64,000 nt of DNA. Source: Chrysomallon squamiferum. Its lineage: Eukaryota; Animalia; Mollusca. Position numbers and translations under genes: made by a program. Position 1 is the first letter of the stretch; each line of letters opens with the position of its first letter. The notes under the pieces are model-generated. The model did no database searches, was not told the DNA's origin, and saw nothing but the letters and a program-made list of their open reading frames with translations. Below are positions 9,147-63,924 of the stretch, one piece after another. The stretch lies in assembly GCA_012295275.1 (NCBI GenBank), contig CM022679.1, positions 29,140,001 through 29,204,000 on the forward strand, read 5' to 3'.

Positions 9147-9240
9147 CTGAAGTTTTTGAGTAGATAACTGAAGTTTTTGAGTAGATAACTGAAGTTTTTA
9201 AGTAGATAACTGAAGTTTTTGAGTAGATAACTGAAGTTTT
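9147..9240. repeat. 21-bp tandem repeat, about 4.5 copies
   Basis: Unit ctgaagtttttgagtagataa. Confidence 0.9.
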
Positions 9241-26133: not shown

Positions 26134-27233
26134 TACACAGTATGTACATATAAAAAAGAATTATAATAAATAAATAAATGATCAGTCAATAATTTTGTTT
26201 AAAATCAAAATGGGTCCTTAGTTAACACTTTAGTATTCATAACCCCGATACCCCCTAAAAAACCCCACAACAACAACTACAAAATAAAATAAAATAAAAA
26301 CAAATATATAAAACAATAAAACAATAAATAAATAAATAAATAAATAATCGGTTCTCTTCGTTCATTTTCGGCTGTCGTTGTTCGTTAAATGACGTAATCA
26401 GTTTAGTAAAACCTCGGATGTTTTCGTTTACGAATATCTGCAGACGCACATTTTTATAATACCACCATGGAAACTTCAAGAACTATTTCAGGAACTATTT
26501 TCTATAAACTGCTGTTCTATTATGGCGCCGAATCTACCGTCACAGTCAGTCGCGCGTATGAATATCAAATATCTGAATAATGTTAGTAGTTCAGAGAAAC
26601 AAGGAATAAGTAAGTGAATTTTGATGTTGATCATTTTTGTTACAGGGATGCCCACAACAAGCGTGCTTAATTATGTTTGTTCCTTTATTAGTATTTCACA
26701 TCACCGTAGGAGTTTCCTTTAGAAAATAATATCCAGTGAAATGTTTTCTTTCGATGATATTTTTCTTTTATTCTTTTCTCATTGTTTTCTTCTTCTTCTT
26801 CTTCTTTCTTTCATTCTTTTCATATTGTTTATCCTGGAAATAAGTTCACCTTTTTTTTTTTTTTTCTTTTTTTTTTTTTGTTATTTTTCAACCGACTCTG
26901 CACTTTTTGTTTATTTGTTTCGTTTATGTTTTTTAGTTTTTGTTTTTTGTTTTTTTTTTGTAATCCATTAGATATTAATACCATTAACATAAGTATGTGA
27001 AAGAACTGACCAGGATTTTGTTTTTTCTTTCAAATTTCCACTTTTTGTTTTTGTTTTTGTTTTTTTAACTGCTCACTATTATTCGTAAATAAACGAAATC
27101 TCCGATCCGCTGACAATAATTTAACTATTTTTTTTCATCGTTTATCAAATTTTGTTCTCCTTCACACACACCAACCTGGGAATTTATTATTGCTCTATTT
27201 TCCCCCATCACTCACCCGCCCCCCAGAGTCACG

Positions 27234-28064
27234 CTAGCACGAGCAGAAGCAGTCGTCCGTGACGGGAAACGACGTCCTCACCCACTTGCACCGCTTCCTC
27301 ATCTTCTTCTTCGCGTTCTGCTTCCTCAGCCGACTCGCCCAGTCCTCCGTGTCGTTCGAGTCGTCGTCGACCTTGCGCACGCGGTAGTCGATGTAGCTCC
27401 GGTGTCCCCGCATCACCACGGGCCTGCCAGATCTGCCTCCGCCGTGGCTGTTGTGGCTGCTGCTGCTGCTGCTGCACTTCCACTGCAGAATCTTGAGTCG
27501 CTTCTCCTTGGCCGGCACGCAGTTCATCCCGGGGGGCCAGGAGCACGAGCTCTCGCTGAAGCAGTAGCCGACCTTGACCCAGCGCGGCCAGAAGTACGGC
27601 CCCACGTACGTCCAGCGGCGGTACACGGGACACGTGGCCCGCTCCAGCAGCCACAGCTCGAGCGCTTTGACGACGGTGTCGTTGACGAGGCCCGACGACT
27701 GCCCGGACAGCGCCTGAGACAGGTTCAGAGCATGCAGCTGCTTCTGCAGGACGGGGTTCATCGTTACGAGGACGACGTCTTCCAGCGAGCTGGGTCGCGT
27801 GATCGACATGTAGTCCGGGTCGAAGTGACTCTTCATCCTGCGCATCAGCTTCTCCGGCTTGAGGTGCTTCTTGCGCGGAACGTCTTTCAGGATGAGTCGC
27901 TCCAGGGGGTCCCCGAGGAACAGGCCCGGCTGCTGCAGGCGGATGTGGTCCGTCCTCGGGTCGCGCGCGCGTCTGTAAGACGGCAGGCTGCACGAGATGT
28001 TCGTGACCAGGTGGAAAGCGAAACAGAAAGGAACAAGCGCCTGGTACGAGTCGTTCAGCTTCAT
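27234..28064 (-). CDS. Noggin-like secreted cystine-knot protein (276 aa, single coding exon)
   Basis: GC-rich ORF with a hydrophobic N-terminus, P.KKHL...L.....HFDP.YMS and LELWL...ATCPV...W...G.YFWPRWVK.G.C....SCS.PPGM.C.P......ILQW.C...C.W....FPV..DC.CSC. All nine noggin cysteines are present. A 61-aa insert lies between Cys5 and Cys6 (27291-27473), the hallmark of noggin-like genes. Confidence 0.95.
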   Translation of the reverse strand: MKLNDSYQALVPFCFAFHLVTNISCSLPSYRRARDPRTDHIRLQQPGLFLGDPLERLILKDVPRKKHLKPEKLMRRMKSHFDPDYMSITRPSSLEDVVLVTMNPVLQKQLHALNLSQALSGQSSGLVNDTVVKALELWLLERATCPVYRRWTYVGPYFWPRWVKVGYCFSESSCSWPPGMNCVPAKEKRLKILQWKCSSSSSSHNSHGGGRSGRPVVMRGHRSYIDYRVRKVDDDSNDTEDWASRLRKQNAKKKMRKRCKWVRTSFPVTDDCFCSC

Positions 28065-28805
28065 CGTCAGTTCTGAAAAACAACAAAAAAAAAAAAAAAA
28101 ATAAATAAAAAATTAATAAAAATAAAATATATAAACTAGACTGATTTACTGTAAAAAAAAAAAAACCAAATCCAAACAGAATCTGAGAGTAAAATTATTA
28201 TAATTAATATTTATTCAGATAATCAAGAATAACAGCTAACCCAGTACTGACAGTGAATGTAAATGAATTCATTTAACACACGTCTGTTGAGATGATAAAT
28301 CATTATCATTAACTTACATTATTTCGACAGTAGGAATAAATGATAATCACGAAGATACATCTGCTGACAGTGAGAGTAAAAACTGCTGTGATTAGCAGAC
28401 ATCTGCTCAGACAGTTGGTCATGCTAGTGAACAGACATTCATTGACGCTGACTGTCAGTTTAATTTTTTTGTTTTACGTATTTAGAGCAAGGACGCGTTA
28501 AATCTGGAAAATCACAAGTTCGTAAGTACTGAAGAATATAGCAAAAATATTTCAGCAATTTCGGCCAGTTCATGACAAGTGTATTGTGTTTGGATAAAGA
28601 ATTAACGCAGCTTAAATACGACATCTGAGATTAACAAAGTCTTCTGTTGTCACAGTTTGTGGTTTTTTTTTTTTTTTTCAACGTTACCTAACTAGGTTAC
28701 TAGGTACGATAATGCGTCATGCTCACATAACCAGTCTATGCGCAATCAGCTGATTCTATCAACAGTTATAAAACTAAAACATATGTATATATGTAATCAT
28801 AAAGG

Positions 28806-28844
<39 letters not shown>

Positions 28845-28892
28845 TATATATATATATAAATATCTGCAATAAATCAGTACTTTTCACAGATA

Positions 28893-29166
28893 ATAACGCT
28901 CGTTGTGTTTTTGTATAACTATGACGTAATTCAGGAAACCCACCGATTCCGCAGCATGAGTTACTCTTTTTGTTTAGCCATGAGAGACTATTTATCTTTA
29001 CCCTCCCAAAGACAGTAAAATACAGCTAAAATCAACTCATTTTCTTTTATACGTATGGCGTTGGCTGGATCGGGAAATAATGAAACAAATGCAACCAAGA
29101 AGGACTGATCTAACGACTACAACGACTCAGACAAATCACTAATAAACATCTCACTCGTCAGCTACC
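28893..29166 (-). mobile_element. Degenerate tRNA-derived SINE, MetaSINE-like, inside the noggin-like intron
   Basis: Ordered fragments ggaaaccc..catgagttactctttt..ttagc..tcccaaagacag..tggctggatcgggaaata..gctac match, from memory, the reverse complement of the molluscan Meta-domain SINE. Confidence 0.55.
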
Positions 29167-29417
29167 CGAGAGAATAAAAGAATTGGGGCGTGGTTGCAAA
29201 AAGATAAAACAAACTTTACGAAAATGAAGAAAGTTACGAGTTTGCAAAAAAACAACAACCGATAGTGCACCTTTAAACAGATGTATTCGTCCTTCAGAAC
29301 TAGTTAACTGTGTCACAATGACGTGATACCGCACACTAGTAACTCGGTTACGTAATCCTAGAAAACTGTGACATTAAAGGGCGGAGATACATACAGAAGA
29401 TGAAAATTACACACACA

Positions 29418-29469
<52 letters not shown>

Positions 29470-29538
29470 CTGAAACACAGAAACAGTCACACACATGTAT
29501 ACATTATTACATAGAGATATATACATACATACACACAC

Positions 29539-29569
<31 letters not shown>

Positions 29570-29892
29570 TACATACACATATACAACATACGTACGTACG
29601 TAGTACATACATGCTTACATGTACATGTACATTCATATCTGCGTATGCAGACTGGTGAATTATTTTTAACGATGTTAGTACTTTAATAATAGTAATATAT
29701 CGGTTTCAAGTAAACATTGCCTACTTCTTAATTTACTTACATAAGCAGATGTGATATGTCTTAGATAAATAATAAACGTAACATGCTGTAATATAAGCAT
29801 CCAGATAAATTTAATAGAAGTATAAATTAATCCTAGTAGATGTGTATTCAAATTAGATTAGATAAACGTGAACTGTAGTCTCCATGGCGATA

Positions 29893-30316
29893 CACACACA
29901 CTCACACATCCACACACCTATATACACACATACACACACACACATACACATCCACACACCTATATACACACATACACATCCACACACACACACATACACA
30001 CATACACACATACACATACATCCACACACCTATATACACACATACACACATACACACACACACATCCACACACCTATATACACACATACACACACATCCA
30101 TACACCTATATACACACATACACACACACACATACACACAGACACACATACACACATACACACACATACACACACACACATTCTCTCTCTCACACACACA
30201 CATCCACACACCTATATACACACATACACTCACACACATACACACAAACACACACACATATAAACACACACATAAACACACACACATTCTCTCTCTCACA
30301 CACACGCACACACACC
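29893..30316. repeat. CA-rich minisatellite with higher-order unit
   Basis: The motif acatccacacacctatatacacacat recurs about 6 times. The tract ends about 40 bp before the inverted noggin-like copy. Confidence 0.85.
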
Positions 30317-30355
30317 TATGTTATAATATACATTATATTTGTCTTATTAAAGCGA

Positions 30356-30463
30356 TTTCAGAACTGACGATGAAGCTGAACGACTCGTACCAGGCGCTTG
30401 TTCCTTTCTGTTTCGCTTTCCACCTGGTCACGAACATCTCGTGCAGCCTGCCGTCTTACAGAC
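30356..30463 (+). repeat. Perfect 108-bp inverted duplicate of noggin-like 27971-28078 (acceptor, 5'UTR, first 31 codons)
   Basis: Base-by-base comparison: tttcagaactgacgatgaagctg...ccgtcttacagac is identical (108/108) to the reverse complement of 27971-28078. Confidence 0.97.
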
Positions 30464-30662
30464 TTTAATTAAGTGGTAATAAATATTCTAAACATTTTGT
30501 TTGTTTGTTTCTACATGTACAAGGCTAAGAATAAATCTAATATATACTAATACGACGCTAGACGTAAATCAAAAGAACGCGCGGTATAGACACGAATATT
30601 AAAATCCACAACTCGGAACAGTAACTATGTATAAATATAAAAAATAAAATAAAAATCCTTAC

Positions 30663-31060
30663 CTGATGTCGTCGTTGTTGCAGATGATAATTATACCTGA
30701 TTCTGTTGTTTGTTCGTTTGTCGTTTCTCTGAATGCCTTTTTTTTTTTTTTCTTTCTTTTTTTTTTCTTTTTTTTGTTCTTTATTGTCTCTCTTCACCCA
30801 GTGTGCAAAGCTTTTAACACCGATCTTCCGTGCGTACGTTCGTCTGTGATGTTGATGTCCATGTCTGTAATAGATATGACAGGTTGGTAGTGTAGAATGT
30901 CAGGCACGCCGAGCAGGGAGTTGTTTTCACGAATAATTTACCTGTACGTCACGCCGCGTTACCGTGGACGAAGCGAAGTCAGCCCCGCGTAGCGGAACAG
31001 ACAGAGAGCACCGGTCTATAATCTCCTTTGTAATCGGGATGAGCAGTGGGTTATAAACAG
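30663..31060 (-). promoter_or_regulatory. Candidate non-coding first exon and core promoter of the noggin-like gene
   Basis: CpG-rich block immediately upstream of the splice donor, with weak TATA-like words at 31016-31021 and 31051-31057. The TSS cannot be fixed from sequence. Confidence 0.4.
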
Positions 31061-45638: not shown

Positions 45639-45854
45639 AAGAAGATAAATAAATAATAAAAAAAAATAATAAAAGAAAAACTGTAATAATGTGTTGATTT
45701 TAATTGTTAAATTACATATCCTGTTTGATAACAGACACAAGGAAGACAGTGACCCCGTATTAAATACACAACTAAAACACAATAGTTAATTACATAACAA
45801 AGATATCTGCTGCAAGAACCACAGAGACAAAATAATCTCATAATTGTCTGAGAC

Positions 45855-46240
45855 TAGGATAGATGCTATAACTCTTGTCAAAAATATTGTAATTAAAAGA
45901 ATAACTTTTATATTCATTACTGTGTGCAATTCGGCAAGCAGGCATGCTAAAACCCTTGTCAAAAATATTGTAATTAAAATAATATCTTATAAATTCATAA
46001 CAGAACATAATTCGACAAGGATGCACACTCTAATTTGTGTTAAAAATACTGCAGATGAAATATCTTTTAAATTCGTTATAGAGAGGAATTTGGCAAGGAC
46101 GCATGCTAGAAGCCTAGTTAAACATATTGCAATTAAAATAATGTTATAAACTTATTAAAGAATACATCAAAAGGTGTATGCATCCATAACTGATGACGTT
46201 AATAATAATGTAATTAAAACAACATGTCGTAAATTCAGTT
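45855..46240. repeat. Diverged ~80-bp tandem repeat, about 5 copies
   Basis: Recurring aagga.gcatgcta.aac.cttgtcaaaaatattgtaattaaaataat....ataaattc. Confidence 0.8.
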
Positions 46241-46852
46241 TAAAGTCTCGAATCATGTAGCATTCAGTGGTTTAGTAACACACACACATACACACACACA
46301 CACATATATAAATATATATATATATATGTATACATACATTATTTTTATTATTAAAGTATTATATATTTAACTGAGGTAAATGAAAGTAATAAATTAATGA
46401 ATAAAATGAAACAATTCAAACAAATAAAGAAACAAACAAAAAAAAAACAAATAACAGAGAAACAAACCAAAAAAACCAAACAAAGAAACCATCAAATAAA
46501 TGAACACATAAACCAATAAACAAAAAAATAATAAAATAAAATAAAAAAACAAACATTAAACAAACAAATAAACCAACAAACCAACAAAATAACAAAACAA
46601 CAAACCATCAAACAAATAAATACATGACACTATCTTTAACACTAGACGTTGAAACAATCAAGTTTTGTTATATTCCTTGACAGATCTTCATGAATTGTCA
46701 TCTTACAAACTCTCTCTTTTTCTAGAGCTAAACGTTGATGTCAGATTTTATTATTTAAAAATACGAGTGAAGAAGAAAAAAAAAGAGTAAGAAAAACAAA
46801 CAGTAAGGAAGAAAAAAGGAAGAGTAAAACTGTATTTGTTGAAACAACATGC

Positions 46853-47497
46853 ATGTATGTACGTATTTATGTATGTATGTATGTATGTATGTATTTATGT
46901 ATGTATGTATTTATGTATGTATGTATGTATGTATTTATGTATTTATGTATGTATGTATGTGTGTATGTATTTATGTATGTATGTAATTATGTATGTATGT
47001 ATTCGTGTATGTTTGTATATGTATATGCATGTATGTTTTTATATGCATATATGTATGTATGTACATATGTGTGTATGTATGTATTTATGTATGTATGTTT
47101 GTTTGTAAGTGCATATGTGTATGCATATATGTCAGTATATACATATGTATATATACATATATACATACATACATACATACATACATACATACATAAATAT
47201 ATACATAAATACATACATACATATATAAATACATACATAAATACATACATACATAAATAAATACATACATAAATACATACATACATGCATACATACATAA
47301 ATACATACATACATACATACATACAAACGTAAATACATACATACATACATACATAAATATATACATAAATACATACATACATATATAAATACATACATAC
47401 ATAAATACATACATACATACATACACACACACATACATACATACATACATACATACATACATACATAATACATACATACACACACACATACATACAT

Positions 47498-61851: not shown

Positions 61852-61886
<35 letters not shown>

Positions 61887-61991
61887 ATTACAAAGCAAAT
61901 ATACAAAAAACATAAAAACATTTTCACAATCATAACCATAAAGCTATTTTACAATAACAAACATTTTGTTTCACCATCAATACTATTAATT

Positions 61992-62917
61992 TTAATATTT
62001 ACTAATATTTCACTTCATACTTTCACAACATTAATATTTACTAATATTTCACATACTACTTTCACAACATCAATATTTACTAATATTTCACATACTACTT
62101 TCACATTAATATTTACTAATATTTCACATACTACTTTGACAACATTAATATTTACTAATATTTCACATACTACTTTCACAACATTAATATTTACTAATAT
62201 TTCACATACTACTTTCACAAGATTAACATTTACTAATATTTCACATACTACTTTCACATTAATATTTACTAATATTTCACATACTACTTTCACAACATTA
62301 ATATTTACTAATATTTCACATACTACTTTGACAACATTAATATTTACTAATATTTCACATACTACTTTCACAACATTAATATTTACTAATATTTCACATA
62401 CTACTTTCACAACATTAATATTTACTAATATTTCACATACTACTTTCACAAGATTAACATTTACTAATATTTCACATACTACTTTTTAATATTTACTAAT
62501 ATTTCACATACTACTTTTTTTAATTTTACTAATATTTCACATACTACTTTGACAACATTAATATTTACTAATATTTCACATACTACTTTGACAACATTAA
62601 TATTTACTAATATTTCACATACTACTTTGACAACATTATATTTATTTACTTTGACAACATTAATATTTACTAATATTTCACATACTACTTTCACAACATT
62701 AATATTTACTAATATTTCACATACTACTTTCACAAGATTAACATTTACTAATATTTCACATACTACTTTGACAACATTAATATTTACTAATATTTCACAT
62801 ACTACTTTCACAAGATTAACATTTACTAATATTTCACATACTACTTTCACAACATCAATATTTACTAATATTTCACTTCATACTTTCACAACATCAATAT
62901 TTACTAATATTTCACAT
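61992..62917. repeat. 39-bp minisatellite, about 24 copies, in the UTP6 intron
   Basis: Unit ttaatatttactaatatttcacatactactttcacaaca with 36-bp and point variants. It explains the repetitive ORFs at 62015-62932. Confidence 0.95.
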
Positions 62918-63924
62918 GCCTATTGCAATTAATGTGACACTGTCAGCTTCGAATCCATCACCTGAATCAGGTGTCACTAGCTGAAGTGATCTCCTCGTGT
63001 ACCTGGTGAACTTTGTAGTCCTGCTAAATGAGTTTCTGCCAGTCACTTATTGTCAAGCAGCTGGCTGACGTTAGACATTAAAAGTAGCCATTACATTTGA
63101 CGCTCAGTGGCAGCCAACAGAAACACAATCACTGCCGATTAATTTCACTGCCATTTTGTTTGAGGCAGTCATTAGGAGAAGATTAAAAATTAAGATTGAA
63201 AAATGAAAAGGGATGAAGTTTCACTTACAGGGTTTTTTTAATTTTGATTTAAGCTGCCGTTTGTGAAGTGTCAACAATGAAGAAACAAATAATAATAATA
63301 ATAATAATAATTGTAATACTAATAATAGTAATAATAAAAATATAATAGTAATAATAATAATAGTAATAATAATAATAGTAATAATAATAATAGTAATAGT
63401 AATAATAAAAATACTAATAGTAATAATAATAATAATAATAGTAATAGTAATAATAGTAATAATAATAGTAGTAGTAGTAGTAATAATAATAATAATAATA
63501 AGGAAGGAGGAATGTTATGATAAAATTAATAACAAAAACAATAACAATAAATAACAATAAAAACAATAATGATAACAAAATAACAATAAATAATAACAAA
63601 TATTACCAAAAAAAATCCCAATCATAATAGACAAAATTTTGAAAAATGATTTTCTTAAAATACAAATTAATTCTTTACTGAAAAGTTTACATCCATATTA
63701 AAATACCTACAACATAAAAAACAAAATTAATTTTCTAGTTTTGTGTGAGATCTCAATAGTTTCAGAAATATGATAGTCTAGGAAAATATTAAGGCCACTG
63801 TAAAATAATTCAAGAAATTTCATCTACAAATTTCCTCCCACAAATTTACTTCATTAGCAAAGAAAAAAATATATTAATAATACAAAAAACAAAAAAGAAA
63901 AAAAAAAAAAAAAAAAGGAATAAA

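What the first reader, a model, noticed from the sequence alone, without database searches (positions are those of the whole stretch)
27971..30463. Noggin-like gene carries a perfect antisense copy of its own splice acceptor, AUG and signal-peptide region inside its first intron
Seen: 30356-30463 is the exact reverse complement (108/108) of 27971-28078, which covers TTTCAG (3' splice site), the 8-nt UTR, the ATG and 31 codons. The two arms are 2277 nt apart. Both candidate upstream donors (30663, 30942) place the copy inside the intron. Inference: the pre-mRNA can form a 108-bp perfect duplex that buries the acceptor and start codon. This could act as a cis splicing attenuator, as an exon-complementary sequence for ADAR editing of the AG, AUG or signal peptide, or as a Dicer substrate giving endo-siRNAs against the gene. 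The excised intron would also be an antisense RNA to the mature mRNA's 5' end, a built-in negative feedback on a BMP-pathway modulator. Established: inverted partial gene duplications can create hairpin or small-RNA silencing loci, and ADAR uses intronic complementary sequences. Perfect identity in otherwise degenerate intronic DNA implies a very recent origin, gene conversion or selection.
Basis: partly seen in the sequence, partly recalled or inferred. Interest (0 to 1): 0.9.

Follow-up and report, generated by a model that had tools for sequence, protein, structure and literature searches.

The report
Backwards exon copy in snail intron
A snail noggin-like gene carries, upstream of its coding exon and likely inside its first intron, a real backwards copy of that exon's start that is predicted to fold onto the splice site and start codon, but the gene's RNA shows no bulk editing and the copy varies between samples, so it is most likely a near-harmless scar of DNA copying rather than a proven switch.

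Summary
30356-30463 is the exact reverse complement of 27971-28078 (108/108), the start of a 276-aa noggin-like gene of a gastropod (nearest named relative Gigantopelta aegis). It is not an assembly artefact and probably not private: contigs of 2 of 5 DNA runs (two studies) cross from the copy into its own flank, and the other 3 break at its edges. A 108-bp pre-mRNA duplex is predicted (-227 kcal/mol). No function is shown. Two RNA runs hold long exon contigs with no A-to-G change at 18 of 18 compared adenosines, AUG included. In 3 of 5 DNA runs the collapsed repeat is only 91 bp and carries two substitutions. If those lie in the copy alone, both become G-U wobble pairs; contig depth hints (7- to 37-fold, rough) that gene and copy share them, which would mean gene conversion. 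Best reading: an inverted templated insertion (MMBIR/template-switch type), near neutral. A splicing or editing role stays possible but untested. The scan noted the same layout before in other genomes (GRK3, VAX2, slit, GSK3B, p190-B).

The parts
27234..28064 (-). Noggin-like coding sequence, 276 aa, one coding exon; hydrophobic N-terminus (likely signal peptide); nine C-terminal cysteines with a 61-residue insert between the fifth and sixth
   Evidence: RNA contigs over 27236-28070 (X6) and 27275-28070 (X9)
27971..28078 (-). Template arm: last 6 intron nt (TTTCAG), 8 nt UTR, ATG and the next 91 coding nt
28073..28110 (-). Polypyrimidine tract and AG acceptor before exon start 28072 (inferred from sequence)
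   Evidence: X9 RNA contig ends two letters beyond 28070 and X6 runs on for 123 letters that do not lie on the intron
28073..30662 (-). Inferred intron 1 (2590 nt), AT- and microsatellite-rich, holding the copy 199 nt after the donor
   Evidence: sequence, donor and acceptor motifs; spliced junction not displayed directly
30356..30463 (+). Inverted copy (antisense in the pre-mRNA). Read on + it gives only a 32-aa peptide and a stop
   Evidence: junction-crossing contigs in X1 and X2
30356..30446 (+). 91-bp form of the shared stretch in runs X2, X3, X4, with substitutions at 30394 and 30402 (gene positions 28040 and 28032)
30663..30967 (-). Inferred non-coding exon 1; donor CAG/GTAAGG at 30663; RNA contig over 30786-30967 passes the candidate donor at 30942 by only 25 letters

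Best explanation
The 108-bp piece is an inverted copy of the gene's exon start that was likely inserted about 2.3 kb away by template switching during DNA replication or break repair, and is likely a near-neutral passenger that the gene tolerates. Shown: the copy, its junctions in two runs, its variation between runs, and unedited exon contigs in two RNA runs. Inferred: a nascent DNA end annealed to the nearby exon, copied about 100 nt in reverse and returned; the TTT that starts both the copy and its right flank may be the microhomology. It arose on the time scale of the species' intronic polymorphism and spread by drift. The pre-mRNA would be able to form the duplex, but the spliceosome likely reaches the acceptor often enough, because the polypyrimidine tract lies outside the duplex and is transcribed before the exon arm. 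The arms may be re-matched from time to time by gene conversion (about even odds).
For: Classical signature of an MMB-type templated insertion: close to and inverted against its template (PMC8421209, passages); about 100 germline events per person were called there, about half shared between two people, and the authors propose that non-disruptive ones accumulate. The copy's ends ignore function: it stops one base into codon 32 and holds only 6 nt of the acceptor region. Variation in the arm (2 substitutions plus a break after 91 bp in 3 of 5 DNA runs) is at intron-like density, against 1 difference in 808 exon-side letters in X3 (Fisher p 0.03). RNA contigs of X6 and X9 differ from the window at one synonymous site only (27710), which DNA runs X3 and X4 share. 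Five AI notes of this scan report the same layout in other genomes (unchecked leads, not support).
Against: Both substitutions keep RNA pairing whichever way they are phased: as G-U wobbles if only the copy has them (chance about 0.07-0.13), or as Watson-Crick pairs if both arms have them. The copy is seen or implied in all 5 DNA runs laid, one a divergent haplotype (X5: 8 differences in 258 letters), so it may be fixed. Inverted pairs within transcripts are under-represented and lower expression in human data (PMC5080714, abstract), so a perfect duplex over an acceptor is not expected to be free of effect. Microhomology could not be scored without an empty allele.
Confidence: 0.62

Rival explanations
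1. The copy is a retained cis regulator: the intronic arm pairs with the acceptor, AUG and signal-peptide codons, slows removal of intron 1 or recruits ADAR, and so tunes noggin-like output in some tissues or stages; pairing is kept by selection or conversion.
For: Full duplex predicted, -226.7 kcal/mol against -35 and -24 for the arms alone; both observed substitutions keep pairing; rough depth arithmetic favours both arms sharing them by 7- to 37-fold; exon-intron duplexes with ADAR-dependent splicing repression are documented (33 exons; PMC5991522, passages).
Against: No A-to-G change at 18 of 18 compared adenosines in 2 of 2 RNA runs (contigs show only majority letters); the arm is shortened to 91 bp in 3 of 5 DNA runs; shared substitutions are equally explained by neutral conversion; no cross-species conservation shown.
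Confidence: 0.2
2. The hairpin or the excised intron silences the gene in trans or in cis through Dicer products or antisense pairing, like hairpin RNA loci or the Lymnaea antiNOS transcripts.
For: A perfect 91-108-bp duplex is a possible Dicer substrate (established knowledge); a gastropod precedent for antisense made by inversion exists (PMC3537157, passages).
Against: The gene is recovered as long exon contigs in 2 of 2 RNA runs; the duplex would be nuclear and lost on splicing; no RNA contig was laid on the copy's flanks in X6 (a hole proves nothing).
Confidence: 0.05
3. The copy is real but ordinarily diverged: only the copy carries the substitutions, no conversion occurs, and the window's perfect match reflects one young, unmutated allele or collapse of the two arms during assembly polishing. 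This is a sub-case of the neutral reading without homogenisation.
For: mRNA contigs of X6 and X9 carry the window's letters at both sites and share 27710 with X3 and X4; the changed Ala9 is conserved in 3 of 3 close homologues; contig assembly can merge near-identical paths.
Against: It needs the copy's path to outweigh the gene's in 3 of 3 runs; simulations gave it 7- to 37-fold lower likelihood, though contig depth is a weak measure by the tool's own warning. X1 shows the last 30 nt of both arms identical.
Confidence: 0.11
4. Assembly artefact.
For: The copy lies beside long AC microsatellites.
Against: Junction-crossing contigs in X1 and X2 from two studies; X2 differs from the window inside the arm, so it is not the same data.
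Confidence: 0.02

Closest known systems
MMBIR-linked templated insertions (MMB-TI; Osia et al. 2021, PMC8421209; passages read)
   Same: Short insertion near, and inverted against, its template; a germline variant shared between individuals
   Different: Template 2.3 kb away; junction microhomology unscored; the copy happens to cover a splice acceptor and start codon in the same transcript
ADAR editing-complementary sequences and exon-intron duplexes (PMC5991522, passages; GluR-B paper PMC1920255, listing and abstract start only)
   Same: Intronic sequence complementary to an exon of the same pre-mRNA, covering a 3' acceptor
   Different: No majority editing seen; conservation not shown; the complement lies upstream in the intron and is a perfect recent copy
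Arm homogenisation of inverted repeats by gene conversion or template switching (PMC8604942, passages; PMC3723533, listing and abstract start)
   Same: Two neighbouring substitutions may be shared by both arms, one changing a codon
   Different: Those cases have arms of 7-16 bp with spacers up to 70 bp, or very large Y palindromes; here a 108-bp arm and 2277-bp spacer, and sharing is only a depth-based hint
Lymnaea antiNOS-2 antisense RNA (PMC3537157, passages)
   Same: Gastropod; antisense to a signalling gene created by duplication and inversion
   Different: antiNOS is a separately transcribed pseudogene acting in trans; this is a 108-bp piece inside the gene's own inferred intron
Noggin-like proteins; Gigantopelta aegis 'noggin-2-like' XP_041362894.1
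   Same: Pfam Noggin, nine C-terminal cysteines, long insert; 59% identity in alignment
   Different: Extra 16-residue Ser/Gly-rich stretch in the insert (61 against 45 residues); activity untested

Membership tests
MMBIR-type templated insertion | [quoted passage not shown] | tested here: met
   definition from PMC8421209
MMBIR-type templated insertion | Microhomology at the junctions relative to the empty site | tested here: inconclusive
   TTT starts both the copy and its right flank, common in AT-rich DNA; no empty allele was seen
MMBIR-type templated insertion | Present as a heritable variant in genomic DNA of more than one sample | tested here: met
   X1 and X2, two studies
ADAR editing-complementary sequence | Complement lies on the same pre-mRNA as the exon | tested here: inconclusive
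   RNA contig upstream at 30786-30967 and donor motif at 30663; spliced junction not displayed
ADAR editing-complementary sequence | A-to-G differences between RNA and DNA in the paired exon | tested here: not met
   0 of 18 adenosines changed in X6 and X9 contigs; majority level only, low-level editing not testable
ADAR editing-complementary sequence | Pairing conserved across species with compensatory changes | not testable with these tools
   No orthologous genomic locus of a close relative could be fetched
Hairpin RNA / endo-siRNA locus | 21-23-nt reads from the arms and silencing of the target | not testable with these tools
   No small-RNA or raw-read run was offered (all 22 runs kept as contigs)
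Noggin family | Noggin domain with cystine-knot cysteines | tested here: met
   Pfam PF05806 E 5.8e-34; PDB 1m4u_A E 1.4e-20; nine C-terminal Cys
Noggin-like subgroup | Long insert between the fifth and sixth cysteine (criterion recalled from Molina et al. 2011, not read) | tested here: met
   61 residues against 7 in the 1m4u chain
Noggin-like subgroup | No conserved N-terminal clip domain (PMC9071555) | tested here: inconclusive
   Neither phmmer nor the profile aligned the first 28 residues of the 1m4u chain; weak similarity is not excluded

The most novel reading that the evidence does not exclude
A young inverted exon copy has become a self-masking RNA switch for a developmental ligand: the intron arm hides the acceptor and AUG, and gene conversion or selection keeps the two arms paired as they mutate, even writing intron-born mutations into the signal peptide. 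That would be a regulatory element caught at birth, with segregating 108-bp and 91-bp alleles that allow a direct test.
Probability: 0.13. Interest if true: 0.75.

Novelty: new member of a known kind. Interest (0 to 1): 0.3.

Why it matters
If neutral, it is a clean natural example that an animal gene tolerates a perfect 100-bp duplex over its acceptor and start codon, and perhaps that a 108-bp intronic copy can feed mutations back into coding sequence. If functional, it would show how editing-complementary or splice-masking elements originate in one step, with natural alleles to compare. At present the first is more likely and the class is recurrent, so interest is modest.

Tried and rejected
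Own-genome search: no genome held, so copy number elsewhere and the genome-wide rate of such copies are unknown. Related loci in metagenome contigs: 1 of 76 candidate stretches, 33% identical, 2332 nt, with only 170 nt upstream of the match and no exon-derived inverted arm; too distant and short to test conservation. Hairpin at the reconstructed empty site (-2.6 kcal/mol): 26% of 166 local 40-mers fold as well, rejected as evidence. DNA versus mRNA origin of the copy: exon 1 and the intron both end in TCAG, so only two T's favour a DNA template; undecidable. The 194-aa plus-strand ORF 29884-30468 is microsatellite plus the copy, rejected as a gene. RNA-versus-DNA differences at 28032 and 28040 as editing: rejected, because the window's DNA, X1 and X5 carry the same letters as the RNA and one change is not A-to-G. 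Holes in cover (X5 and X2 right of the copy; X3, X4 in the intron) were not read as absence. X9 has a low-depth intron contig (28128-28227); pre-mRNA or DNA, not used. No notes on this genome or on similar proteins in the scan. Paper search for noggin-like + insertion + cysteine + BMP gave 0. Searches listed no paper on this locus; none used a species name, so this is not a claim of absence from print. Supplements were not opened.

Full report
Observation. The two stretches are exact reverse complements over 108 nt, cannot be extended, and lie 2277 nt apart. Apart from simple and tandem repeats this is the only long exact inverted pair in the window; chance expectation is about 1e-56. The template arm holds TTTCAG, 8 nt of UTR and 94 coding nt of ORF 27234-28064(-). 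The ORF is a Noggin-domain protein (PDB 1m4u_A) with nine C-terminal cysteines and 61 residues between the fifth and sixth, against 7 in the human chain. That insert is the mark of noggin-like proteins as I recall it from Molina et al. 2011, which I did not read; PMC9071555 (passages) defines them by lack of the clip domain, which I could not settle. A search gave 6 relatives among 383 candidates; the best (58%) clusters with Gigantopelta aegis noggin-2-like and the named others are gastropods, so the window is likely from a related snail. The species was not determined.

Is it real and shared? On 30322-31060, X1 has a contig from the left flank through all 108 nt with no difference, one from the last 30 nt of the copy into the right flank (30 letters, one short of the tool's bridging rule), and one from the same 30 nt into the gene. 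X2, of another study, crosses the left junction with 34 + 91 letters and two substitutions (30394, 30402). X5, a divergent haplotype (8 differences in 258 letters near exon 1), shows only the gene form, but its contigs break exactly at the copy's right end; its flanks have no cover, which proves nothing. On 27180-28800, X3 and X4 each have a 91-nt contig from 27988 that by its length would end at 28078, the copy's edge, with the same two substitutions (28040, Ala9 to Thr if in the gene; 28032, silent). So the copy is shown in 2 of 5 DNA runs and implied in 3 of 5, and in 3 of 5 the shared part stops after 91 bp for a reason I could not see (a third difference or a shorter copy).

Is it transcribed and does it act? 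X6 has a contig over 30786-30967 and both RNA runs have long contigs over the coding exon. The X6 exon contig runs 123 letters past 28070 without lying on the intron, which fits splicing to an upstream exon; the only GTRAG donor upstream is at 30663. Folding 27900-30967(-) gives all 108 pairs, -226.7 kcal/mol for the duplex and -186.8 for the 91-bp form. Yet each RNA exon contig differs from the window at one site only, 27710 (silent, shared with DNA runs X3 and X4), so 0 of 18 compared adenosines in the arm, the A of AUG included, are edited at majority level. Contigs hide minor editing, intron retention levels and small RNAs.

Who carries the two substitutions? Either the copy alone, with the gene's path merged away in assembly, or both arms. 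For the first: both mRNA contigs carry the window's letters, and Ala9 is kept in 3 of 3 close homologues. For the second: simulated contig depths were 7 to 37 times more likely with the gene sharing them on one or both alleles, over three sets of assumptions. The tool warns that contig depth is no copy number and the assembler's merging rule is recalled, so this is a hint; I put sharing at about even odds. Either way pairing survives: copy-only changes turn G-C and U-A into G-U and U-G (chance about 0.07-0.13). This is the best evidence for function, and it is weak. Two changes in 91 letters against 1 in 808 elsewhere on the exon side (p 0.03) suggests that they arose in the unconstrained copy.

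Mechanism. A short insertion close to and inverted against its template is the classical signature of MMBIR-type templated insertion, found as germline variants shared among people (PMC8421209, passages). The ends fit an accident: one base into codon 32, 6 nt into the intron. Microhomology is unscored without an empty allele, and an empty-site hairpin was no better than background. I commit to a repair- or replication-born insertion, near neutral, possibly homogenised by conversion or template switching (PMC8604942, passages; PMC3723533, listing), at 0.62, with 0.11 more for the neutral case without conversion. A retained splicing or ADAR role gets 0.2: exon-intron duplexes can repress splicing through ADAR (PMC5991522, passages) and inverted pairs lower expression (PMC5080714, abstract and outline). 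Silencing as in Lymnaea antiNOS (PMC3537157, passages) gets 0.05, artefact 0.02. 10.1101/2024.05.28.596352 and PMC10869764 (passages) only confirmed that noggin-like genes occur in lophotrochozoans and invertebrates.

Novelty. It works like a templated inverted insertion and could work like an editing-complementary or splice-masking arm; the editing test was not met at majority level, so I do not file it there. The scan's own notes list at least five similar inverted exon copies in introns of other genomes (8 notes shown; unchecked). Verdict: real, new member of a known kind, interest 0.3; the open points worth a test are the phase of the two substitutions and nascent-RNA behaviour.

Noticed in passing
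window 27970: Run X5 has a different letter at the first gene base after the copy's end (Arg32 to His), at the very place where its contigs break.
   Followed up: partly
window 28071-28072: The X9 exon contig ends two letters past 28070, i.e. at the inferred exon start, although exon 1 and the intron share TCAG before it; unexplained.
   Followed up: no
window 30862: One upstream ATG in the inferred exon 1; a TATA-like ATTATAGA lies at 31015-31022 on the minus strand, about 50 nt above the RNA contig's end.
   Followed up: no
window 30935-31051: X5 differs at 8 sites, mostly clustered at 30982-30997, and appears to lack 8 nt near 31044; a divergent haplotype or population.
   Followed up: no
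window 27420-27475: The protein has a Ser/His/Gly-rich stretch (AGC repeat) that the Gigantopelta-cluster proteins lack: insert of 61 against 45 residues.
   Followed up: partly
window 61872-63003: Minisatellite of about 39-nt units, some 27 overlapping matches.
   Followed up: no
window 46849-47467: TATG-type microsatellite directly followed by its reverse complement, a 300-nt imperfect palindrome.
   Followed up: no
window 9147-9240 and 45852-46162: Short tandem arrays of about 21 nt and about 81 nt.
   Followed up: no
window 1-64000: The noggin-like ORF is the only long GC-rich coding-like stretch; the other 25 ORFs of 100 aa or more look mostly like simple-repeat or chance frames and were not searched.
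   Followed up: partly
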